IMG/VR virus record: IMGVR_UViG_3300037141_000243
Location: 1 to 64,000 of that record
From: a virus
DNA: 64,000 nt
Direction: 5' to 3' (one strand)
Made by a program: the position numbers and the translations under genes. Below, one piece after another: positions 7,304 through 50,078 of this stretch; within the stretch, counting starts at the first letter, position 1, and every line of letters begins with the position of its first letter. The notes below the pieces were generated by a model, which was not told the DNA's origin, made no database searches, and worked only from the letters and a program-made list of their open reading frames with translations.

Positions 7304-7909
7304 TTAAGTAGTAAGTAGTTCTAGTGCTTTTCTTAGTTTGGCAGCACGTACCCATTCAGATATTCGTTTACCTTGTGCTTTACGTTTTGCTGGTGTCCAA
7401 AAAGCCTTTTGAGCCGTGACAATTTCTGCACGTCGTTTCTTATCGGCCCACATCTCTAAAGATGCTTTTGAACGAATTGCATCTGCTTTGCGTCGAACTT
7501 CGGGGTCTTTCGATCCACCAACAGCGTATTGGTTACCCAACCCGGCTTGACTAATTTTCTTTCTGGCAGATTTGGAAAAAATCATATTTGTAGGGCCTTC
7601 CCCACCATCCGTTCGATTAACAAGCGGGCCTGTTCCTAAATCTTCCCGACCTATTACTTTAATCAAAGCCATTTCCATTTCAACGGCTTCTTTACGCGTT
7701 AAGCCAGTTCTAATTACACAAACAGGTAGCTTACCTTTTGTTCCACGAATAATGCGGGCCAGATGAAGATTAGTGTGTTGACCTCGTAAAGCTCTTTTAA
7801 TGTGCTTAAAAGGTCGGTCTTTATTTCCTTGTCCAACATAACAAGGAATTCCAGTCAAACGAAAATAAATGTAAACACAGAACGCGCACCACGGTATTCT
7901 TTTTGCCAC
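7304..7909 (-). CDS. GIY-YIG-like free-standing endonuclease with basic helical (NUMOD3-like) tail
   Basis: VYIY..CYVGQG..R, E..LI..GR..LGTGPLVNRTDGGEG; GTG start after GGAGG; AT-rich. Confidence 0.8.
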   Translation of the reverse strand: MAKRIPWCAFCVYIYFRLTGIPCYVGQGNKDRPFKHIKRALRGQHTNLHLARIIRGTKGKLPVCVIRTGLTRKEAVEMEMALIKVIGREDLGTGPLVNRTDGGEGPTNMIFSKSARKKISQAGLGNQYAVGGSKDPEVRRKADAIRSKASLEMWADKKRRAEIVTAQKAFWTPAKRKAQGKRISEWVRAAKLRKALELLTT

Positions 7910-7911
7910 AA

Positions 7912-7988
7912 GAACCTCCCGGTTCAATCCAAAGTGAAGACACGGCAGGTAGGTGGATAGCCTACTCTTCGGGGTATCCCCCTAGCCG
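7912..7988 (-). ncRNA. Candidate cis-regulatory RNA (three-way junction plus SD hairpin), copy A
   Basis: Same architecture as 49998..50078, with compensatory changes in one stem. Confidence 0.6.
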
Positions 7989-10881: not shown

Positions 10882-11715
10882 TTAAATAGCGGCTTGTTTG
10901 TTCTTCTTGGCGCGTCTTTTATTAGACGCGATTACCGCTGCGATTGTTCTGGCACGCGTAACAGGGTCAGACATTCGATCTTTAGCTGCTTTGCGATTAA
11001 TTTCTGTTTGTTTTGCGCGATAAATTGGATCGGCCCAATTCTTGTTATTGCGTTTTGTAGTAGCTTCACGCGCTGTAGCCGGCGGGGGTCGCCCATACAT
11101 CGGACTATTCTTTCCAGACATCGAAGCCCGGTATGCTTCATCCGCCCAAAGTTTCTTAGCGGCTTCGCTTGGTTTGCTGCTTGCCAAGCGGCCCCGGCTT
11201 ATACTGTCGCGATGCTCTTGGGTAATTGGTATACCTTTCCTTGGGGAAGGCTTACCTTTATTCCACGCAGGAATACCTTTCTTCCCCGCACTAATAGCAG
11301 CACATTCTTCCAGGGAGCGTTTACGACCTGTTAAGGAAGCTCGTCTTTTTTCATTGGTTTCTTTTGAAGGAATATGACCGGACATACCCTCACCACCATC
11401 AGTGAGATTAGCCAAGCGGCCCGTACCGTTATTAATCCTACCAAATTTAAGAATTAGTATGGATTCATACGCAAGGGCGTCTCTTTCCAAAAGACGCCCG
11501 CGAATAATTTTTCTTGGTACAAACCCCAATTCACGGATACGTTTTCTTATTGCATTTCGCTTGCGGATATTGGTGCAATGCTCATCAACATTTTCAGCGG
11601 CGGAGAAGTTTATACGACGACGCTGCCCTTTTCCAATATAAAAAGGATCAAGCATTTTTACATCCCGGTAAAGACCGTAAACGTAATATATTCTTTTTGA
11701 AACCTTAACTTTCAT
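10882..11715 (-). CDS. GIY-YIG-like endonuclease with NUMOD3 repeats
   Basis: YYVYGL..PFYIGKG..R, LANLTDGGEG, PAWNKG, KNSPMYGR; AT-rich. Confidence 0.8.
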   Translation of the reverse strand: MKVKVSKRIYYVYGLYRDVKMLDPFYIGKGQRRRINFSAAENVDEHCTNIRKRNAIRKRIRELGFVPRKIIRGRLLERDALAYESILILKFGRINNGTGRLANLTDGGEGMSGHIPSKETNEKRRASLTGRKRSLEECAAISAGKKGIPAWNKGKPSPRKGIPITQEHRDSISRGRLASSKPSEAAKKLWADEAYRASMSGKNSPMYGRPPPATAREATTKRNNKNWADPIYRAKQTEINRKAAKDRMSDPVTRARTIAAVIASNKRRAKKNKQAAI

Positions 11716-36342: not shown

Positions 36343-38340
36343 CTACCCACCCAGCACTAAAGTACCGCAGGCCAGCACGAGAGGGCTGATCCCATCGCCT
36401 TGCGCGAAAGGCTGCGCGAAGGCTTCCAGCACGGCGAACAGGCTACCTTTGGGCTCGCCCTTGGTGCCCATAATGACCGAAGTCACATAGCCGCGTACAA
36501 CGTGGCGAATTGATTCCGGATTGACATCCTTTTCCTTCAGACCAACCAGGATATCCCTGATTTCACCCCAGGGCCGTCCCGCTACCAAGGCACGGGCCAA
36601 ATCGACCGCCTCGGTGCTTTCCTCGGCGCTACGGAGCAGATCACGGGCTTCCTCGATGGTCTTGGCCCCGGCACACGCACCCAGCGCAACAAGGCCAGCA
36701 CGCGGGCTGCCGTGCGCCTCCTTGGCGCAGAGCGATACGATTTGACGGCCCGCACCCGTCTGAAGGATTTTCTCGGCAACGGCTACGCTTTCTAACAGGT
36801 CGATGATCAGGTTGGTTGGTACATCTTTTAAGTTGTAAGCCGTGCAGCGGGTTTTGATATTGGTGGGGATTTTCCCCAGCTCGGTCGTGCAGAGGCACCA
36901 CCACGTATCTGGCGGCGGCTCTTCCAATGATTTAAGCAGGGACGCCCATGCCGGCGCTCCGAGGCGATGGCAATTATGCACCAATACATTATTTACAAAA
37001 TATGACGGATGCTTTTCAATCTCTAAATCGTAGAACGTGACATAGCCATCACACAACGCTTGATCTCGGTTACAACTTGCGGGCAAAATTTCAATACCTG
37101 CTCGTTGGTAACTCGTAACACTGTCCACCCTAAAGATTCCAGTTTCTTTTCCTTTTTGCGATCCTTCGCTTGATTTCGTTCCGAATTGTGCCCTTTCCCA
37201 TCTACTTCTATTGCTAATTTTATATGCGGAAAAGCCAAATCCACTTTGTAATTTGTAGGGTATCCGGGTAACCTTTTCCCCAAAGAAACAGCAAACTCTA
37301 CCGCACAGTTCAAACGCTTTAGTAACATAACCTGGGGCTTCGTTAGTTTTCCATTCCCACCCCGATTTTCCGGAAGAATTAAGTTCGTCCCATTTTTTAT
37401 TCTGGTAGCTATAATTTTGTCGATTACATCCCGTCGTTTTGTGGGGTTGTTTTTCTGCATCCGTTTGGAAGACAAACGGTCCAGCTTTTTGTAATACTCC
37501 GGGGAACGAATACGAGATTCCAAAACCCCACGAGAAACAGCTTCTTTCCAATAATCTGGACGCGGCCCAGTTCTTTTTGATGCCCCCAACTCGTCTCCAC
37601 AAACTTTCGAACAAGTCTGAATTCCCAAACCATTTGAACGCACATAAAAAGGCTCCCCACAAACCGGGCACTGCCTTCGCAGGCAAGTGGTGCAAGTTAT
37701 TTTGTTTGGCGCTCTGGCTTGAAAACTTATCCCACATGAGGAGCAAGTTTTGGTCCAACGTCTTTTTGCTCTGTAATTCATCACCAATTTGTAGATCGCA
37801 CGCGGCAACCCACCCCCTAGCTGTAAAAAACAAATGCTCTTTAGAGCAACAAATAGAGGATGATCCTATGCTTATTTGCATAACCCTTGCAAGAGGAATC
37901 TTGGACCGAAAAACAGAACTAACCCGCGACAACCCAAGCCCGCACACAATTTCTTGCCCCACACCAATCTGCTCAATTGGCAAAAACCCATTACCAACAT
38001 CAATCAACGTTCCTGGAGCAAAACATTCATCTACAATAATCACGCGGGCCTGGCTGCGACCGTGCATTTTGTAGCCCAAGGTTTCGGTAATCCGCCTCAT
38101 GTCATCGATGCTGGTAAAAGTCGCAGCGTCGATCTCCTGAATGGCGTGGTCCTTGGCCCCCACTTCGGTAGCAAGGATGCGGGCCAACGTGGTCTTGCCC
38201 GTACCCGATGGACCGGAGAACAAAAAGGTGTGGTTGCTCTTGGATTTGAGGACACGCCGCAAGGATGTAACCACGGCGTCCTGACCGATCACATCTTCAA
38301 AGGTCTTGGGACGGTATTTAAGGTAGAGGGATTCGGTCAT
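36343..38340 (-). CDS. dnaX: DNA polymerase III gamma/tau-like clamp loader ATPase, intein-containing
   Basis: LYLKYRPKTF.DVIGQ, GPSGTGKTT, IIVDE|..|CHRL, LLKSLEEPP, CTTE..KIP..IKTRC. Confidence 0.9.
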   Translation of the reverse strand: MTESLYLKYRPKTFEDVIGQDAVVTSLRRVLKSKSNHTFLFSGPSGTGKTTLARILATEVGAKDHAIQEIDAATFTSIDDMRRITETLGYKMHGRSQARVIIVDECFAPGTLIDVGNGFLPIEQIGVGQEIVCGLGLSRVSSVFRSKIPLARVMQISIGSSSICCSKEHLFFTARGWVAACDLQIGDELQSKKTLDQNLLLMWDKFSSQSAKQNNLHHLPAKAVPGLWGAFLCAFKWFGNSDLFESLWRRVGGIKKNWAASRLLERSCFSWGFGISYSFPGVLQKAGPFVFQTDAEKQPHKTTGCNRQNYSYQNKKWDELNSSGKSGWEWKTNEAPGYVTKAFELCGRVCCFFGEKVTRIPYKLQSGFGFSAYKISNRSRWERAQFGTKSSEGSQKGKETGIFRVDSVTSYQRAGIEILPASCNRDQALCDGYVTFYDLEIEKHPSYFVNNVLVHNCHRLGAPAWASLLKSLEEPPPDTWWCLCTTELGKIPTNIKTRCTAYNLKDVPTNLIIDLLESVAVAEKILQTGAGRQIVSLCAKEAHGSPRAGLVALGACAGAKTIEEARDLLRSAEESTEAVDLARALVAGRPWGEIRDILVGLKEKDVNPESIRHVVRGYVTSVIMGTKGEPKGSLFAVLEAFAQPFAQGDGISPLVLACGTLVLGG
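36973..38025 (-). mobile_element. Intein (351 aa) inserted after the Walker B DE of the clamp loader
   Basis: Starts CFAPGTLI; block B-like CSKEHLFFT; block F FYDLEIE..SYF; ends VHN followed by extein Cys. Confidence 0.92.
37023..37781 (-). CDS. Vsr/DUF559-like endonuclease nested in the intein in an alternative frame
   Basis: CxxC zinc fingers; YKVDLA...KLAIEVDG..H......D..KE..L..LGWTVLR. Confidence 0.85.
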   Translation of the reverse strand: MNYRAKRRWTKTCSSCGISFQARAPNKITCTTCLRRQCPVCGEPFYVRSNGLGIQTCSKVCGDELGASKRTGPRPDYWKEAVSRGVLESRIRSPEYYKKLDRLSSKRMQKNNPTKRRDVIDKIIATRIKNGTNLILPENRGGNGKLTKPQVMLLKRLNCAVEFAVSLGKRLPGYPTNYKVDLAFPHIKLAIEVDGKGHNSERNQAKDRKKEKKLESLGWTVLRVTNEQVLKFCPQVVTEIKRCVMAMSRSTI

Positions 38341-39700: not shown

Positions 39701-42265
39701 TTATTTTTTCCACGTGTTAGATGCGTACTTACCAATCTCGTCCATATCACAGAGATTAGGACCGATGGACATTTCCACCACCAGCGGCACATTCAGGAAC
39801 GGGTAGGTCTTAGTCAGCAAGGTATCAATCTTTTCCTCGGCATAATCATCAAAACCCTTAACTGGAAAGATACTGGTAAGATCATCATGGATATTACAAA
39901 TGGGCTGGAAATACCAGTCTTCCTTTTCCGAAAGTGCGTTCATTCCGTCGATCACAATTTCACTCGCTAGATTTTGGATAGGGGCATTGATAAGCTGGTT
40001 CGGTGAGATTGGGGCGCGGCGTCGTATTCCCATTGCATTCTCAACATACCCCTGCTCCTTGAAGTCAGCGATGATGCGTTCCTGCCATTCCTTGACCCCT
40101 GAAAAGGTCTTCCAAAATTCCTTGTAAAGCCTACCCAGAGATCCCTCAGGCAAACCCACTTGTCTTTCGGCGGTCGATTGCTGCGCGCCAAAGAACAGGG
40201 CGAAAACCCACCCACCCTTAACCGTCTGGCGAAAACCCTTCATGACGCCTTTGTCTTTTATGTATTTCTTACCCCCAACAACAACAGGAAATTCGTAAGC
40301 AATCTGCTCGGCCCAATCCATGTGCACGTCATAATCTTCCCAGAGCATTTTAGCGTAAACTTTGTCCTGTGACTCCATCGCTATACAACGACCCTCAATC
40401 TGCCCGTAATCCACGGAGCAAAGCAGATGGCCCTCAGGGGCGGCGATCTGACGACGGATTTCTTTTCCATCATCAGTTCTCTTGGGCAGATTTTGTGAAT
40501 TTGGGTCCTCTGAACTCGACCGACCTGTAACCGTACTGAATCCATTCAATATCGGATGCAGCTTTCCATCAGGGTAAACGTATTTGTGACCCTTGGGCCA
40601 TACATAAGTTGACGCCAGCTTGGACGGCGCGCGCCAGTCCAACACCTTTTTGGCAATCGGGGCGTCGATCTTTTCCAGCACGGATTTGGTTACGGAATAG
40701 CTGGCCTCGCCGCCGTTGTAGCCTTCGCTCTTGCCAGCATCCGACCCCACAATATCGCGGAACATCTTGACACAGTCGGTATCCGATCCGGGCTTAAAGT
40801 CCTTTTTGTATTTCTTACGGAAGGCTGCCACATCCGGATCGGTCGCGATGGCCTTTGTCGCCTTGGCAATGGCCGTGCTCAATTTGTCATCGAGGCGGTC
40901 GGCCTGCTCAAAGTCGACCGGCATCCCCTTGATTTGTGTTAGGACAAGCGTAGGAATACGACGAATGCGGCGCTGGTATAGTTTAGTCAGTCCATCCAGC
41001 TCCAATTCCTCGGCCTGGTTCCAAAACAGCTCGAGACAGTATTTGGCGTCCACCGCGTTGTAGGGTAGGATCGCTTCCAGCGGTTCGCTTTCCATGTTTT
41101 TAGTATCGACATTAGACAGCGTCTTGATGTTAATACCAAAGCGGTTGAGTGTGATGAAACCCAACCCAAGGCAACTCGTATCCTTTGATGCCTGCTCTTG
41201 ATCCGGCTTACCACCCACCCTTTCGTCCAGGGTATAGGCTTGGACCATCGAGTCACCCCATTGGGTACCGCGCAACAATTCCTTACCAAATTTGACCGCC
41301 GTCCATTCCATCTCGAATGCCAAATTGTGGGCTATCTTGCGGACAGGGGCTTTCAGGTACGCGAGGAAAGCCTGCCGGATCATTTCCTTGGCCGGCTTAC
41401 TCCATTTGGCTTCTGGGTGGTCGTAGGGGAAGGCAATCGCCTTACCTTTGATTGCAATCCCAATGGACAGGATTTTGGTTTCGGGGCGGTAAGGGCGCAA
41501 ATGACTGGTTTCATAGTCAAGCCCGGATTCAGGCTCGCTGGCGGCCTTTTCCAGAAAGCGGACAATGTCCCCTGCCGCCCGTGGATCGCACCAGTCGACG
41601 CTTGTGAGGCCCGTGAACGCCTTTTCCCGGCTATGGAAAGGGGGCGGGGGCAGATCGTTGATCTCAGCAAAGGCCCGGCGCAGGTCAAGGCGGAAAACAT
41701 GCTCCTCCTTGGATTCCCCGCTGCGGCGGGCTGAGCGGGCCACAAAGGTGGGGTCCAGCATGGGGAAATACCAGCAGACGTGGTTACCTATCTTGACGGG
41801 TATTTTCCTGCCACGCCATTTGACAATACCATTCTGTTGGAGCGCCCAATGTAGGGGCACATTCCCCATACCGAAGATCGCTAGGGGCTGAGCAACAATG
41901 ATGTCTTTTTCAACACGCGGTCTGCAACACTCTCTCTCGATAGGTTCAGGATCACGTCCGGCTGGCGTTCTACAATTGATGACATTGTTAAAGCGTATTC
42001 GGTCGCGCCACTTCTTAGGAATCTGTTTGAGCAAAAGCTGGCCCGATGTGCCGGCAAAATGCTCGCCCTGTTTATCATCCTCGGCGGTAGGGGCTTCCCC
42101 CAATATGTAGATGTCAGGCTGCTTATCGCCCGACGCTTTCATCTTGGGGTGGTCAAGGTCGGCTGTATTCAGCGGGCATCCACGGCAACCCAACCTGCGA
42201 TACAAATCAACAGACCCAGAATCACCGCTGGCTTTTGCTAACGTCTGTGCCCCAAAAAACCCCAA
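39701..42265 (-). CDS. polA: Family A DNA polymerase with N-terminal uracil-DNA-glycosylase family 4-like domain and 3'-5' exonuclease
   Basis: CxxC and GEAP in the UDG-like domain; DYET, HN..FE, YNAVD exonuclease motifs; TGRSSS..PN.QN, DYGQIE, IHDD. Confidence 0.92.
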   Translation of the reverse strand: MGFFGAQTLAKASGDSGSVDLYRRLGCRGCPLNTADLDHPKMKASGDKQPDIYILGEAPTAEDDKQGEHFAGTSGQLLLKQIPKKWRDRIRFNNVINCRTPAGRDPEPIERECCRPRVEKDIIVAQPLAIFGMGNVPLHWALQQNGIVKWRGRKIPVKIGNHVCWYFPMLDPTFVARSARRSGESKEEHVFRLDLRRAFAEINDLPPPPFHSREKAFTGLTSVDWCDPRAAGDIVRFLEKAASEPESGLDYETSHLRPYRPETKILSIGIAIKGKAIAFPYDHPEAKWSKPAKEMIRQAFLAYLKAPVRKIAHNLAFEMEWTAVKFGKELLRGTQWGDSMVQAYTLDERVGGKPDQEQASKDTSCLGLGFITLNRFGINIKTLSNVDTKNMESEPLEAILPYNAVDAKYCLELFWNQAEELELDGLTKLYQRRIRRIPTLVLTQIKGMPVDFEQADRLDDKLSTAIAKATKAIATDPDVAAFRKKYKKDFKPGSDTDCVKMFRDIVGSDAGKSEGYNGGEASYSVTKSVLEKIDAPIAKKVLDWRAPSKLASTYVWPKGHKYVYPDGKLHPILNGFSTVTGRSSSEDPNSQNLPKRTDDGKEIRRQIAAPEGHLLCSVDYGQIEGRCIAMESQDKVYAKMLWEDYDVHMDWAEQIAYEFPVVVGGKKYIKDKGVMKGFRQTVKGGWVFALFFGAQQSTAERQVGLPEGSLGRLYKEFWKTFSGVKEWQERIIADFKEQGYVENAMGIRRRAPISPNQLINAPIQNLASEIVIDGMNALSEKEDWYFQPICNIHDDLTSIFPVKGFDDYAEEKIDTLLTKTYPFLNVPLVVEMSIGPNLCDMDEIGKYASNTWKK

Positions 42266-42267
42266 AC

Positions 42268-42987
42268 CTATTTACCCCTACAAACATGCTTCCACGTCTG
42301 ACCAGAACAGATAAGGCTTATGGTTGCTTTACCAACCCCAAACCTTTTTGCTAACGCTCCCCCGCCAAATTCTTGATGATACGGTTTATAGTTCTCAATA
42401 ATAAAACGAACATCATCTTCAGTAAGTTTTGACGAACTACTTTTACTACCCCTAAGTGAATCACCGACTTTTCGATTATGCTCGGCAGTGTGGGGTTTGC
42501 CGCGCAAAGCTATAGATATTTTTTTCTTATGCACTTTAGACAATGGTTTTCCACCTACCCATATTTTTCTACCATTTCTATGTGCATCACGAATATTGTC
42601 TCCTTTTGTTCCCCACGCAAGATTTTCCAAATAATTATTTGTACAATCATCATCCAAATGACGAGCAAGACTGCATCCTTTTCCTGATCCATATTTAGTT
42701 GGTGGTGGTCCCCTAAACGCCAGCAAAACAACAGCAGCCACAGCAATCTGTTTATCTTTGCCAATCTTTGCATAAGCTCTAACTTTTCCTGAATGTTCTA
42801 CTATAGATTCAGCCCACACGCGCCCATCAGAAGACATAAACGATGCCCGTTTTGTACGTCCATTATTACTCGCACATAGCCCATCAGACCCAGGAACGGG
42901 CTTCCATATTTCAGGGCGATGATAAAGGTCATTTGATCCGGCCTCGCCTTGTGCCTTGGCGAGAGTCTGCGCCCCAAAGAATCCCAT
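42268..42987 (-). CDS. HNH homing endonuclease (NUMOD4/HNH/NUMOD3/HTH)
   Basis: EIWKPVPG...ASNNGR, ARHLDD..TNN.LENLAWGT..DN, HTAEHNRK, KLTEDDV; AT-rich. Confidence 0.85.
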   Translation of the reverse strand: MGFFGAQTLAKAQGEAGSNDLYHRPEIWKPVPGSDGLCASNNGRTKRASFMSSDGRVWAESIVEHSGKVRAYAKIGKDKQIAVAAVVLLAFRGPPPTKYGSGKGCSLARHLDDDCTNNYLENLAWGTKGDNIRDAHRNGRKIWVGGKPLSKVHKKKISIALRGKPHTAEHNRKVGDSLRGSKSSSSKLTEDDVRFIIENYKPYHQEFGGGALAKRFGVGKATISLICSGQTWKHVCRGK

Positions 42988-42993
42988 GTGATG

Positions 42994-43359
42994 TTATTTT
43001 ACTTCTTCAGGTTGAAACACCCAATACTCGCTACACAAATCACACAGCATTCCCCACGAAGGCCACCCGTGAATATAAGAGCTATCGGGGGCGGCCATCC
43101 ACGCCTTCTCAAAAAACGAATGCAAGGTTTCGTGATCCTTTTCTGCCTTGGCGTCCTCAAGAGTGCGGATCATTGTCTTTTCGTGAATTACAGGCTCTAA
43201 TCCAATACCATCAGACCACCACAAGCCTTCAGGACCTCGACTCATTGGGGCGCCACATCGATCAAAAATATCAAGGATATTAGACCAATGCGAATCAACA
43301 GCCGCCCACCAATCCCCCTGTGTTCTAATTTCCACGCTACACCATTCCGCTGACAACAA
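42994..43359 (-). CDS. Hypothetical protein
   Basis: 121 aa, Trp-rich. Confidence 0.55.
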   Translation of the reverse strand: MLSAEWCSVEIRTQGDWWAAVDSHWSNILDIFDRCGAPMSRGPEGLWWSDGIGLEPVIHEKTMIRTLEDAKAEKDHETLHSFFEKAWMAAPDSSYIHGWPSWGMLCDLCSEYWVFQPEEVK

Positions 43360-44356
43360 ACCCCGAATGGTTACCCATCGTCATGATGACGCAGTTATCG
43401 GTAAACAAAATCTTGTCCATTTTGGAAAGACCCTTCTTGACCAGCGCCACATCAAACGCTGATTCGGCTTTATAGCTCGCGCCTTCCAGCGGCACCTTTT
43501 CTCGCAACTCGCCGGCATTGGTATCCAGCTCAAGAGAAAGCATCGCATCAGCCACGGTATGCTTAACCCCTATCGGCAAAACGCCACAAAGCACCAGCAC
43601 ACGGTCATACGCCAAGGCCAAGCGTCCGGGGATTTCGGTGACCTTTTTATGGTAATTTTCCGGCAGGACATTTGCTAAGGCACTATCATAATCAAGCGGC
43701 TTTTCGCTATGGATCAGGCGGGAAAATATGGCGGTGCCGTTCTCGGCTACGGCCATGACCGCATCTTCCTCAAGGTACAACTTACCGCCAGCAGCGCAAA
43801 GCTCAAGCACCTGTTGGCAAAAGGCGGGCGGCACTTCCATCCGCACCTTCGGCAGATCGGTGCCGTTAACCACCGACCAGGCCAAGCTGCGGTCGTTGGT
43901 GGAGTACAATCGCAAGCGGTCCTTTTCACTAATGAAGCTGACCCCGGTTTCATCCGTGGCGCTGATCAGGACATGTTGGATCGCATCCAACAGCTTTTGA
44001 TCCAACTTGATGTGTTTTTTGGGTAGCTGTGGGAATTCCCAGACCGCACTATCGGGTGGCAGAGACGGAAACTTGGCTTTCGATCCACCCAGCTTCAAAA
44101 GGAAGTCGTTACCATCCAAAGTGATCTCAGCCTGCTTGGCGAGGGAATTGCTGACCATGCCGTAAAGCAACGCGCCCTGGACGCCACCCTTAAAGTCAGT
44201 CTCCAGCGGCACGTCTATTCCGATGATATTATTGTAGGCGAAGAGCGATTCCCCTGTGAAGTAGTAACACAACAGTTGCGTTAAGGGGTTTTTGTCCGCG
44301 AGAGCGGGTTTGCAGTTTTTAAGAGCGGTGAATAATTCACGGCGGTCAAATTTCAT
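43337..44356 (-). CDS. DNA polymerase III beta sliding clamp-like protein
   Basis: About 340 aa; MKFDRRELFTALK..KPAL start, AYN, STN.RSL, IFSRLI...LDY; near the DnaX-like gene. Confidence 0.65.
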   Translation of the reverse strand: MKFDRRELFTALKNCKPALADKNPLTQLLCYYFTGESLFAYNNIIGIDVPLETDFKGGVQGALLYGMVSNSLAKQAEITLDGNDFLLKLGGSKAKFPSLPPDSAVWEFPQLPKKHIKLDQKLLDAIQHVLISATDETGVSFISEKDRLRLYSTNDRSLAWSVVNGTDLPKVRMEVPPAFCQQVLELCAAGGKLYLEEDAVMAVAENGTAIFSRLIHSEKPLDYDSALANVLPENYHKKVTEIPGRLALAYDRVLVLCGVLPIGVKHTVADAMLSLELDTNAGELREKVPLEGASYKAESAFDVALVKKGLSKMDKILFTDNCVIMTMGNHSGFVVSGMV

Positions 44357-44428
44357 AGGTACCCTCAAAAAGAAAAGGCTCGCTAGATAAGACATACCCA
44401 GCGAGCCCAAGGTAGAGGAGTAATAGGT

Positions 44429-49131: not shown

Positions 49132-49995
49132 CTATTTGGGCTTAGGGGGTTTACCATGCTTTTCCCGCCATTTGACCCAGCCAGCACTCATGGCAGCACA
49201 AGTCTTTTTACGAAAATCTAAGTCATTCTCCCAGCGGGCAGAATACCTAATACCGGCGGCTTTTAATTTTGCCACTACATCTGACCGCCCCATAGCCTGT
49301 TTAACAGCGACCTTTCTCCGTTCCTTCACACCAGGTTTTGCATTAGCCGCTTTAAGAATTTTACCTAAATTAGCACGCCACTTTGGATCGGCCCTTGTCG
49401 CTTTGTGTTTAGCTTTCACTTCCGGACGACTATACGCTTCCTTTGCTTTGGTGCTTTGTCCTTTACGCCAAACTACATCCGCGTGGGCTACCCTACATCT
49501 TTCCTTCACATCAGGCCGAAGATGAGCCGCTTTAAGAATTTTATTTCTTCTCTCTAAGAAACCCGGTTTCCGTAAAGTTGCCAAAGCAGCTTCTCTTTTC
49601 TTTGCTTTTACCTCCGGTTTTGCCAACGTCTCTTTAAGTACCATCGCCCTTCTCTTTCTGGCATCATCAGAAAGGGCTACTAAACCATCACCCCCGCACG
49701 TCATATTTGCTAAAGTACCAGTACCAAGATCAAGTCTACCATATCTAGTAATTAATCTTATTTCTAAAGCAACCGCCTCTGATTTAGTCAGACCCCCGGC
49801 AAAAACTTCATACAAAAGATTTTCAGCACCGTATTTACGAATGATGTTTCTAAAAATATTCTTTCGCTTTGCGGGTCGCTTTGCTGCTCTCAAATGTTCT
49901 TCTTTACGCTGTTTTCTTTTGCTTACCCCAATATAACACAGCACGCCATTAGGACGGCGGAATTGGTAAACGTAATATATGCCTAAACGTTTCAT
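49132..49995 (-). CDS. GIY-YIG-like endonuclease with basic helical repeats
   Basis: YYVYQF..CYIG, E..LI..YGR.DLGTGTLANMTCGGDG; PEVKAK/PDVKER/PGVKER repeats. Confidence 0.8.
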   Translation of the reverse strand: MKRLGIYYVYQFRRPNGVLCYIGVSKRKQRKEEHLRAAKRPAKRKNIFRNIIRKYGAENLLYEVFAGGLTKSEAVALEIRLITRYGRLDLGTGTLANMTCGGDGLVALSDDARKRRAMVLKETLAKPEVKAKKREAALATLRKPGFLERRNKILKAAHLRPDVKERCRVAHADVVWRKGQSTKAKEAYSRPEVKAKHKATRADPKWRANLGKILKAANAKPGVKERRKVAVKQAMGRSDVVAKLKAAGIRYSARWENDLDFRKKTCAAMSAGWVKWREKHGKPPKPK

Positions 49996-49997
49996 CA

Positions 49998-50078
49998 AAA
50001 CCTCCCGGTTCGATCTATCCTGGGAAAAAGCGCGGCAGCCAGTTGGATGGACTGGTTTTCGGGGATCAACCTAGCCGC
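49998..50078 (-). ncRNA. Candidate cis-regulatory RNA, copy B
   Basis: Matches 7912..7988 with a covarying stem. Confidence 0.6.

What the first reader, a model, noticed from the sequence alone, without database searches (positions are those of the whole stretch)
42194..42987. HNH gene has captured the polymerase's N-terminus and supplies a recoded replacement
Seen: the HNH ORF starts MGFFGAQTLAKAQGEAGSNDLYHR (42987-42916) and the polymerase starts MGFFGAQTLAKASGDSGSVDLYRR (42265-42194), 19/24 aa identical. Most shared codons differ synonymously (ATG GGA TTC TTT GGG GCG CAG ACT CTC GCC AAG GCA versus TTG GGG TTT TTT GGG GCA CAG ACG TTA GCA AAA GCC). The polymerase starts at a TTG 2 nt after the HNH stop. 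Inference: the nuclease invaded the 5' end of an essential gene without intron or intein, took over its start signals and carried a recoded, cleavage-immune copy of the disrupted segment. Retention of the peptide in both proteins suggests it is under selection, perhaps as a docking motif.
Basis: partly seen in the sequence, partly recalled or inferred. Interest (0 to 1): 0.75.

Follow-up and report, generated by a model that had tools for sequence, protein, structure and literature searches.

The report
Homing nuclease borrows polymerase start
A selfish nuclease gene sits inside the first codons of a phage DNA polymerase gene, uses the polymerase's own start codon, and is followed by a second, differently spelled copy of those codons that lets the polymerase be made whole, an arrangement known from fungal mitochondria.

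Summary
On the minus strand of a 72.8-kb peat phage genome, a 239-aa HNH ORF (42268-42987) and the 854-aa UDG-exonuclease-PolA polymerase ORF (39701-42265) both begin with the same 24-residue peptide. They share 19 of 24 residues but only 44 of 72 bases, and third codon positions match at chance level (6 of 24). The polymerase's TTG lies 2 nt after the HNH stop.

The nuclease is I-HmuI-like. Its family starts at residue 25-26, so the first 24 residues are a graft taken from the polymerase. The body is compositionally foreign (GC3 0.27 against 0.60). There is no sign of an intron and no intein. An independent sequencing run bridges both junctions.

New here: a second, different HNH (P0003; 36% identical in the body) carries the same tag (23 of 24) and runs 6 codons further into the polymerase. 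HNH-less relatives are collinear from residue 1.

My reading is a free-standing homing endonuclease that captured the polymerase's start, with a diverged 5' patch restoring the gene. Not shown: which copy is resident, cleavage immunity, and any docking role for the peptide.

The closest analogue is the fungal mitochondrial mobile-ORF "gene hybrid". This is a new variant of a known kind, of moderate interest.

The parts
42916..42987 (-). Copy A: 24 codons with an ATG start, polymerase-type N-terminus MGFFGAQTLAKAQGEAGSNDLYHR. It now forms the first 24 codons of the HNH ORF and lies 6 nt after the stop of the upstream 121-aa ORF.
   Evidence: It is 23 of 24 identical to the tag of P0003, where it continues as LGCKGC, the next polymerase residues.
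42268..42915 (-). HNH homing-endonuclease body (codons 25-239 plus the TAG stop at 42268-42270). It contains NUMOD4-like, HNH_3-like, NUMOD3-like and C-terminal helix-turn-helix-like parts.
   Evidence: phrog_59 HNH endonuclease, E 2.9e-26, residues 25-235. Family profile against I-HmuI 1u3e: E 9.1e-28. Foldseek against 1u3e: E 7e-5. H110, N122 and N131 are conserved. GC3 is 0.27 and GC is 0.36-0.41. Single-sequence Pfam hits are below their curated cut-offs.
42266..42267 (-). 2-nt spacer (GT) between the HNH stop and the polymerase TTG. This is a termination-reinitiation distance.
   Evidence: Coupling itself is inferred.
42194..42265 (-). Copy B: 24 codons with a TTG start, MGFFGAQTLAKASGDSGSVDLYRR, in frame with the rest of the polymerase. 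A GGGG run lies 9-12 nt upstream.
   Evidence: It restores the family-typical N-terminus M-[GS]-[FL]-F plus a linker before the C-x2-C-P-L motif.
39701..42193 (-). The rest of the polymerase gene (codons 25-854): UDG-like domain starting at LGCRGCPL, 3'-5' exonuclease, and family A polymerase.
   Evidence: Pfam UDG 2.2e-13, DNA_pol_A_exo1 1.3e-5, DNA_pol_A 1.6e-46. phrog_17. 65% identical to P0035.
42994..43359 (-). Upstream 121-aa ORF of unknown function. Its stop lies 6 nt before the ATG of copy A.
   Evidence: No Pfam or PHROG family.
43337..44356 (-). Sliding-clamp-like processivity factor gene, two genes upstream. Context only.
   Evidence: phrog_947, E 6.1e-21. A clamp homologue lies directly upstream of the polymerase in L001, L004, L012, L017 and L019.

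Best explanation
A free-standing, I-HmuI-like HNH homing endonuclease gene is fused in frame after codon 24 of a phage DNA polymerase gene.

Shown:
- The nuclease has no start of its own and is read from the polymerase's original ATG, so it carries a 24-residue polymerase tag.
- Two bases after its stop, a second and strongly diverged copy of the same 24 codons, beginning with TTG, reopens the polymerase frame. This gives a full-length enzyme collinear with uninterrupted relatives.

Inferred:
- Ribosomes that finish the nuclease re-initiate at the TTG, or start there on the GGGG run, so polymerase output stays tied to its old initiation region.
- The nuclease cuts or nicks uninterrupted alleles near codons 20-32. 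This is the stretch encoding the conserved C-x2-C-P-L motif, and a second, different HNH has inserted within 18 bp of the same point.
- Repair copies the nuclease together with the 5' patch.
- The two copies share at most 8 identical bases in a row. That destroys the target site and blocks recombinational loss of the nuclease.
For: Anatomy.

The 24 residues are a graft:
- In the 16 aligned homologues, the 15 other than P0003 have no tag and align from E-x-W-K-P, our residues 26-30.
- I-HmuI aligns from its own residue 2.
- Residues 1-20 have pLDDT about 50 and no secondary structure, while residues 31-60 have pLDDT 83-90 (10-residue block means).
- There is no other in-frame start before codon 51.

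Foreign origin of the body: GC3 0.27 against 0.60; GC dip to 0.36.

The nuclease looks intact: H110, N122 and N131 are conserved, and the ORF is uninterrupted.

Not an intron or intein: plus the stop codon.

Uninterrupted relatives:
- In 11 relatives' loci aligned (of 19 found and looked at), the polymerase starts M-[GSA]-[FL]-[FL] directly.
- P0035 is 65% identical and collinear from residue 1, with no gap at positions 24/25.
- C27, C30 and P31 are invariant, and L32 nearly invariant, in those relatives, so a start downstream of codon 25 would lose them.

Recurrence:
- P0003 carries the tag at 23 of 24 identity plus LGCKGC. Its HNH body is only 60 of 168 identical to ours.
- In a profile search of 1.84 billion representatives, only P0001 and P0003 among the best 150 match from profile position 1.

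Real DNA: a contig of the independent run X14 bridges both junctions.

Precedent: mitochondrial mobile-ORF gene hybrids, with 64% base identity and 91% residue identity between duplicated gene ends (PMC3630166, passages read).
Against: - No close relative was available as DNA. The empty site, the direction of transfer and which copy is resident all rest on protein-level comparison (P0035, P0003).
- Nothing shows that translation starts at the TTG. An automatic gene call (P0034) starts the polymerase at Met42, and in-frame TTGs also exist at codons 21 and 25.
- The GC3 of copy B is not distinguishable from the rest of the gene.
- Codon identity is no lower than independent draws would give, so 'recoding' is not demonstrated beyond saturation.
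- RNA folds around the restart are not significant (z -1.09). The promoter and terminator scans are at chance level.
- Pfam hits of the single sequence fall below their curated cut-offs.
- No contig lacking the HNH was seen in the 4 runs laid.
- Only two proteins carry the tag, so the arrangement may be confined to one phage lineage.
- Cleavage, target site and immunity are untested.
Confidence: 0.65

Rival explanations
1. The polymerase of this genome was never interrupted. Copy B with its TTG is the resident start. The nuclease arrived already carrying tag A, acquired in an earlier event in another phage. It landed in the short spacer between the 121-aa ORF and the polymerase, like an ordinary intergenic free-standing homing endonuclease.
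For: Both ends of such a cassette would lie in non-coding spacers (6 nt upstream of the ATG, 2 nt before the TTG). The GC3 of copy B is compatible with the polymerase gene. TTG starts occur elsewhere in this genome, and one relative's polymerase also starts with a non-ATG codon (L013). The same tag on P0003 shows that tagged nucleases exist in at least one other genome.
Against: It still needs the in-frame capture event to have happened once, so it changes the history and not the mechanism. It requires a very precise insertion that keeps the 2-nt restart spacing. Tag A sits exactly where a resident start is expected, and in P0003 it continues seamlessly into polymerase sequence.
Confidence: 0.2
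2. Copy B is an untranslated or dispensable scar. The polymerase starts further down, at the TTG of codon 21 or 25 or at Met42 as the automatic call has it, and the duplicated peptide has no present role.
For: The automatic gene call P0034 starts at Met42. The Shine-Dalgarno-like sequence before the TTG is weak compared with many genes here. Conservation between the copies can be inherited from their past and need not reflect present selection.
Against: A start at Met42 removes C27, C30 and P31, which are invariant in relatives. M-[GS]-[FL]-F at the very N-terminus is kept in the relatives aligned. The TTG is the first start after an in-frame stop two codons upstream and rebuilds that N-terminus exactly.
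Confidence: 0.1
3. The HNH body plus copy B (42194-42915) is removed from the mRNA by splicing (group I intron or similar), so the polymerase is made from copy A joined to codon 25.
For: Such a joint would be in frame and would give a normal N-terminus. The last base before the would-be 3' splice site is G. Relatives of this nuclease family are intron-encoded in phage polymerase genes (I-HmuI, recalled; I-PfoP3I, PMC3428280, title and abstract seen in the listing).
Against: Rfam found no intron family at E<=1 in 41500-43500. 648 of the 722 nt are HNH coding sequence that aligns with homologues to its end, leaving 74 nt, too little for a ribozyme core. The folds are not better than shuffles. 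The base before the would-be 5' splice site is C, not the usual U (recalled rule). An intron does not explain a second copy of the exon.
Confidence: 0.03

Closest known systems
Mobile-ORF 'gene hybrids' of fungal mitochondria (Allomyces macrogynus atp6; Glomus sp. atp6, atp9, cox2, nad3). PMC3630166, passages read. [quoted passage not shown]
   Same: A free-standing homing endonuclease ORF sits in phase with a host gene. One end of the host gene is present twice. The two copies are similar as protein but far apart as DNA: 64-81% base identity against 91-100% residue identity there, 61% against 79% here. One copy completes the working gene and the other is left beside the nuclease.
   Different: Those are in organelles, mostly at the 3' end, with LAGLIDADG or GIY-YIG enzymes, and the leftover copy is a silent remnant. 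Here the host is a phage and the 5' end is duplicated. The leftover copy supplies the nuclease's start codon and becomes part of the nuclease. The working copy needs a new start (TTG) placed 2 nt after the nuclease stop.
Free-standing homing endonucleases that interrupt phage genes (mobE in nrdA of phage Aeh1, mobA in T4 gene 60, a seg gene in gene 43 of Aeromonas phage 25). Review PMC2988022, passages read.
   Same: A nuclease gene without intron or intein lies inside an essential replication or nucleotide-metabolism gene of a phage. There is tight stop/start spacing suggestive of translational coupling.
   Different: Those split the host gene into two polypeptides that must reassemble, and no duplicated segment is described (the review has 0 occurrences of 'duplicat'). 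Here nothing is split: the short upstream piece is duplicated, so the polymerase is a single chain.
I-HmuI (PDB 1u3e), an HNH homing endonuclease
   Same: Same protein family and domain order: family profile E 9.1e-28, Foldseek E 7e-5. By recall, I-HmuI also lives in a phage DNA polymerase gene.
   Different: I-HmuI is intron-encoded (recalled) and starts with its own Met one residue before the E-W-K motif. Ours has a 24-residue polymerase tag, an extra NUMOD3-like insert at residues 140-171, and no intron.
Intron ORFs fused in frame to the upstream exon (PMC7487136, introduction passage read)
   Same: The nuclease borrows the host gene's start codon and first codons.
   Different: There the host gene is restored by RNA splicing. 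Here it is restored by a second DNA copy of the borrowed codons.
Inteins in the same polymerase family (L014, L015, P0035)
   Same: Selfish elements invading a conserved motif of this polymerase.
   Different: They are in frame without a stop, are removed as protein, and sit at a different site (after T-G-R near residue 583).

Membership tests
HNH homing endonuclease, I-HmuI / HNH_3 type | HNH (H-N-N) catalytic motif present | tested here: met
   H110 and N122 are invariant, and N131 is nearly invariant, in 17 aligned sequences. phrog_59, E 2.9e-26. The single-sequence Pfam HNH_3 hit is only 16.9 bits against a cut-off of 24.8.
HNH homing endonuclease, I-HmuI / HNH_3 type | Sequence and fold similarity to a characterised member | tested here: met
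   Family profile against 1u3e: E 9.1e-28, profile positions 6-169 on chain residues 2-159. The model (mean pLDDT 75.5) against 1u3e: Foldseek E 7e-5, probability 1.00, the only match at E<=0.001.
HNH homing endonuclease, I-HmuI / HNH_3 type | Present in some and absent from other related genomes at the same site | tested here: inconclusive
   Absent from P0035 (65% identical polymerase) and from the relatives' loci. A different HNH occupies nearly the same site in P0003. No close relative was available as DNA, and no HNH-less contig was seen in the 4 runs laid.
HNH homing endonuclease, I-HmuI / HNH_3 type | Site-specific cutting or nicking of the nuclease-free allele | not testable with these tools
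   Needs a biochemical assay.
Mobile-ORF gene hybrid (mitochondrial type) | Nuclease ORF in phase with the host gene, and one gene end duplicated | tested here: met
Mobile-ORF gene hybrid (mitochondrial type) | Copies conserved as protein and diverged as DNA | tested here: met
   19 of 24 residues, 44 of 72 bases, third positions 6 of 24.
Mobile-ORF gene hybrid (mitochondrial type) | One copy groups with close relatives (resident) and the other is foreign | tested here: inconclusive
   Copy A is 23 of 24 identical to the P0003 tag, and copy B about 20 of 24 (the copy B figure was counted by eye). No base-level comparison was possible. GC3 is not decisive.
Group I intron with endonuclease ORF | Ribozyme core detectable | tested here: not met
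   No Rfam intron hit at E<=1 in 41500-43500. Only 74 nt lie outside the HNH coding sequence. Folds have z -1.09 and -0.58.
Intein | In-frame insertion without a stop, with splicing blocks | tested here: not met
   The HNH ORF ends in TAG, and the polymerase continues in another frame.
Split gene ('genes in pieces', Aeh1 nrdA type) | Host protein made as two polypeptides that reassemble | tested here: not met
   The ORF from 42265 encodes the whole protein, collinear with P0035 from residue 1.

The most novel reading that the evidence does not exclude
Phages harbour a class of intron-less, intein-less homing elements that are 'self-patching'. The mobile unit is the nuclease plus a diverged copy of the 5' codons it displaces, placed for translational restart. 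The nuclease is thereby expressed from the host gene's own start and the host gene is repaired in the same stroke. Two unrelated HNH genes have taken this route within 18 bp of each other in one polymerase. A bolder add-on is that the borrowed M-G-F-F tag is a replisome docking peptide that brings the nuclease to replication forks.
Probability: 0.3. Interest if true: 0.75.

Novelty: new variant of a known kind. Interest (0 to 1): 0.55.

Why it matters
Homing endonucleases are thought to enter essential genes safely only inside introns or inteins, or else to split the gene. This locus shows a third route in a phage: take the gene's start and bring, or leave, a spare copy of the displaced codons.

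If the second case (P0003) has the same layout, the route is recurrent. It would explain some 'short' polymerase calls and orphan N-terminal duplications in phage annotation. Here an automatic call starts the polymerase at Met42 and loses two conserved cysteines.

The locus also offers a natural design for inserting a gene into an essential ORF without loss of function. It gives a testable target site for a new I-HmuI-like enzyme.

Tried and rejected
- **Contigs of P0003 and P0035.** The DNA of the 3,047-base P0003 contig and the 14,004-base P0035 contig could not be read. This is the main gap.
- **Pattern scans for the peptide GFFGAQTLAKA.** 0 matches in viral contigs and 0 in genome contigs.
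- **Metagenome scan with the first 120 polymerase residues.** 87 stretches matched a pattern and 1 was a relative, a distant one (L029, 34%).
- **The search for related loci in viral contigs.** The HNH gave 5 loci matching only the NUMOD3-like part. P0003 gave none. P0035 gave 11 loci at 30-46% identity. None helped.
- **The search for homologous proteins with the 120-residue N-terminus.** 'near' lengths: 3 candidates, none scored. 'longer': 2 hits, the window's own polymerase and P0035.
- **Reads.** 4 of the 16 listed runs were laid (X14, X3, X4, X7). No joints, so no HNH-less form was seen. X4 has no cover over 42213-42840 and X7 only patchy cover, which says nothing either way.
- **Complex prediction.** Clamp (alignment A2) with polymerase residues 1-50 (alignment A4) scored 0.02 and 0.01. 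The tool gave no verdict and no controls were folded. This is neither for nor against docking.
- **Motif scans and folds.** Promoter and terminator scans were at shuffle level. RNA folds were not significant.
- **GC3 of copy B as a marker of foreign origin.** Not significant.
- **Other cases of the same layout.** None in the whole genome. None in the 36 other loci held, about 0.33 Mb, where only low-complexity matches appeared.
- **Literature.** 5 full-text searches found no phage case of a homing endonuclease with a duplicated 5' gene end. The library holds open-access papers only, and supplements were closed, so this is weak evidence of absence.
- **Earlier notes of this scan.** Nothing by sequence for P0003.


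Full report
**What is there.** The window is the first 64,000 bases of a 72,849-base virus record, rated 98% complete. Runs that hold it are almost all peat metagenomes. On the minus strand the order of genes is:
- a clamp-like processivity factor (43337-44356; phrog_947, E 6.1e-21);
- a 121-aa ORF of unknown function (42994-43359);
- a 239-aa HNH ORF (42268-42987);
- an 854-aa polymerase ORF (39701-42265) made of a UDG-like domain, a 3'-5' exonuclease and a family A polymerase (Pfam E 2.2e-13, 1.3e-5 and 1.6e-46).

The HNH ORF starts at ATG 42987, six bases after the stop of the 121-aa ORF. It ends at TAG 42270-42268. After two bases (GT), the polymerase ORF opens with TTG at 42265.

- The first 24 codons of the two ORFs give MGFFGAQTLAKAQGEAGSNDLYHR (copy A) and MGFFGAQTLAKASGDSGSVDLYRR (copy B).
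- 19 of 24 residues are identical but only 44 of 72 bases. Identity at codon positions 1, 2 and 3 is 17, 21 and 6 of 24. Fifteen of the 19 shared residues use different codons.
- The longest run of identical bases is 8.
- Among 100,128 pairs of ORF N-termini in the whole genome, this pair has 18 of 23 identities and the next best has 9. It is the only N-terminus-to-N-terminus BLASTP match (E 6.4e-7).
- A 982-base contig from run X14, a study other than those of the probable source runs, covers 42142-43123 without a difference. The layout is therefore not an assembly artefact of one data set.

**The 24 residues on the nuclease are a graft.**
- I aligned the protein with 16 of the 32 homologues (query excluded) found. 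The 15 other than P0003 lack the tag and align from the E-x-W-K-P motif, which is residues 26-30 here. E26, W28 and K29 are invariant.
- A profile of that alignment matches the solved homing endonuclease I-HmuI (1u3e) at E 9.1e-28, starting at residue 2 of that chain. A model of our protein finds 1u3e as its only Foldseek match at E<=0.001 (E 7e-5).
- In the model, residues 1-20 have pLDDT about 50 and no secondary structure. The first strand starts at residue 28.
- No in-frame ATG, GTG or TTG lies between codon 2 and codon 50. The conserved N-terminal motif can therefore only be translated from the polymerase-type ATG.
- The catalytic H110, N122 and N131 are conserved, so the enzyme looks intact.
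- Its body has GC3 of 0.27, against 0.60 for the polymerase and 0.47 for the upstream ORF. GC falls to 0.36 in 42500-42699. It is a compositionally foreign insert.
- On its own the sequence reaches only sub-threshold Pfam scores for NUMOD4, HNH_3 and NUMOD3, but it matches phrog_59 at E 2.9e-26.

**Copy B rebuilds a normal polymerase.**
- Nineteen related loci from IMG/VR, 31-42% identical, have no HNH at the polymerase 5' end in the loci where that end is held (L002 starts inside the polymerase). Most of them start the polymerase with M-[GSA]-[FL]-[FL], then about 20 variable residues, then [LM]-[GE]-C-x-x-C-P-L. In the cleaned alignment C27, C30 and P31 are invariant, and F4 and L32 nearly so.
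- A closer relative, P0035, is 65% identical over 584 and 276 aligned residues. It is collinear from residue 1 with no gap at positions 24/25. It starts MGFFGSQTLAKAAGGESLDELYHKQECKACPLN.
- An automatic gene call in the protein collection starts our polymerase at Met42 (P0034, 813 aa). That start would drop both cysteines. The TTG at 42265 is the first start after an in-frame stop two codons upstream, and it is the only start that restores the family N-terminus.

**Not an intron and not an intein.**
- Rfam at E<=1 finds only a chance-level small-RNA hit in 41500-43500.
- Of the 722 bases between copy A and codon 25 of the polymerase, 648 are HNH coding sequence that aligns with homologues to the last residues.
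- Folds of the two junction regions are no better than shuffles (z -1.09 and -0.58).
- The HNH ORF ends in a stop, and the polymerase is in another frame.

**A second case.**
- The homology search returned P0003 (209 aa, from a 3,047-base Logan contig). It starts MGFFGAQTLAKAQGESGSNDLYHRLGCKGCGKFERWKP.
- Its first 24 residues are 23 of 24 identical to copy A. It then runs six residues further into polymerase sequence (LGCKGC) before its own HNH begins. Its HNH body is only 60 of 168 identical to ours.
- So a different nuclease is fused to the same polymerase start, with a junction about 18 bp further in.
- This shows that the A-type peptide was contiguous with the C-x-x-C motif in a related genome. 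It also shows that the stretch encoding this invariant motif is a repeated landing site, and that in-frame capture of the start is not a one-off.
- A profile of P0001 plus P0003 was searched against 1.84 billion representatives. Among the best 150, only these two match from profile position 1. All others match from about position 19-39 or later. The tag-HNH fusion is therefore rare, perhaps limited to this phage lineage.

**How it most likely works.** Shown so far: the anatomy, the graft, the foreign composition, collinearity with uninterrupted relatives, and the second case. Inferred:
1. The nuclease recognises the uninterrupted polymerase 5' region around codons 20-32 in a co-infecting phage and cuts or nicks it.
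2. Repair copies the nuclease and the adjoining patch.
3. Ribosomes starting at the old polymerase ATG make the tagged nuclease, stop at TAG, and restart two bases on at TTG. Alternatively they start there on the GGGG run 9-12 bases upstream.
4. The copies share no more than 8 identical bases in a row. The target is therefore destroyed, and recombination between the repeats, which would delete the nuclease, is hindered.

- *Carried in.* Which copy is resident cannot be decided. Copy A sits in the native position and matches P0003. But the GC3 of copy B (0.46) is within the range of the gene: 5 of 34 windows are as low. A history in which tag plus nuclease arrived together upstream of an intact resident copy B remains possible (rival 1).
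- *Recoded.* Four of 18 shared residues have identical codons, against 6.6 expected for independent draws. That is saturation, not demonstrable avoidance.
- *Selection or docking.* Each copy was a polymerase N-terminus in its own past, which explains the protein-level conservation. The copy on the nuclease is needed for its start codon alone. The family-wide M-[GS]-[FL]-F motif and the clamp gene next to the polymerase in five relatives make a docking role for the polymerase peptide an idea worth testing. No tool result bears on it.

**Comparison with what is known.**
- The nearest described arrangement is the mobile-ORF 'gene hybrid' of fungal mitochondria. A free-standing endonuclease ORF lies in phase with atp6, atp9, cox2 or nad3. 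The gene's C-terminus is present twice. The inserted and native copies are 64-81% identical as DNA but 91-100% as protein, and the inserted copy is ascribed to transfer from another species (PMC3630166, passages read; the Allomyces atp6 case is cited there). [quoted passage not shown]
- In phages, free-standing endonucleases are known to split nrdA, gene 60 and gene 43, and to sit at coupling distance from neighbouring genes (PMC2988022, passages read). That review does not mention a duplicated segment, and five full-text searches found no phage example (open-access library only, supplements closed).
- The present case is therefore a new variant. It is in a phage, at the 5' end, with an HNH enzyme. 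The leftover copy serves as the nuclease's start, and a new TTG start sits two bases after the nuclease stop.

**Verdict.** My confidence in the main explanation is 0.65. It is a new variant of a known kind, with interest 0.55.

Noticed in passing
L014:5788-6785; L015:5399-5811; P0035 residues about 585-1022: Three relatives of this polymerase carry an intein at the same place, after T-G-R and before S-S-(E/D)-P-N. The frame stays open through the insert. L014's insert contains an HNH-like H-x-D-G-N-x-x-N-D stretch, and L015's is a mini-intein. The window's polymerase has none.
   Followed up: partly
window 36343-38340 (-): The clamp-loader-like AAA+ gene (DNA_pol3_delta2, AAA) has a long in-frame insert with weak Intein_splicing and Hint_2 hits, both below Pfam cut-offs. 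It is flanked by DEC...HNC in the translation.
   Followed up: partly
window 49132-49998, 10882-11715, 7304-7927 (all -): Three paralogous ORFs. Two have GIY-YIG-type Pfam hits, so the genome carries several nuclease genes of the homing type besides the HNH studied here. None shows a duplicated neighbour N-terminus.
   Followed up: partly
window 42263-42265 and 42140-42142 (-): The protein collection holds the window's polymerase as an 813-aa product starting at Met42 (P0034). That call omits the TTG start and two cysteines that are invariant in relatives (C27, C30).
   Followed up: yes
N-termini of polymerases in L001-L019 and window 42254-42265: The very N-terminus M-[GSA]-[FL]-[FL] is kept across this polymerase family while the next 20 or so residues vary freely. 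A clamp-like gene lies directly upstream of the polymerase in L001, L004, L012, L017 and L019. The function of the motif is unknown.
   Followed up: partly
window 41675-42123 and 44138-44250, run X7: Short contigs of run X7 differ from the window at about 6-20% of bases, mostly at what look like third codon positions (records 26, 28, 32). A related phage therefore co-occurs in peat at low depth. It could supply the missing close comparison.
   Followed up: no
window 44376-44408 (-): A 14-pair hairpin followed by a T-run, terminator-like, lies just upstream of the probable clamp start at 44356, inside the longest-ORF extension of that gene.
   Followed up: no
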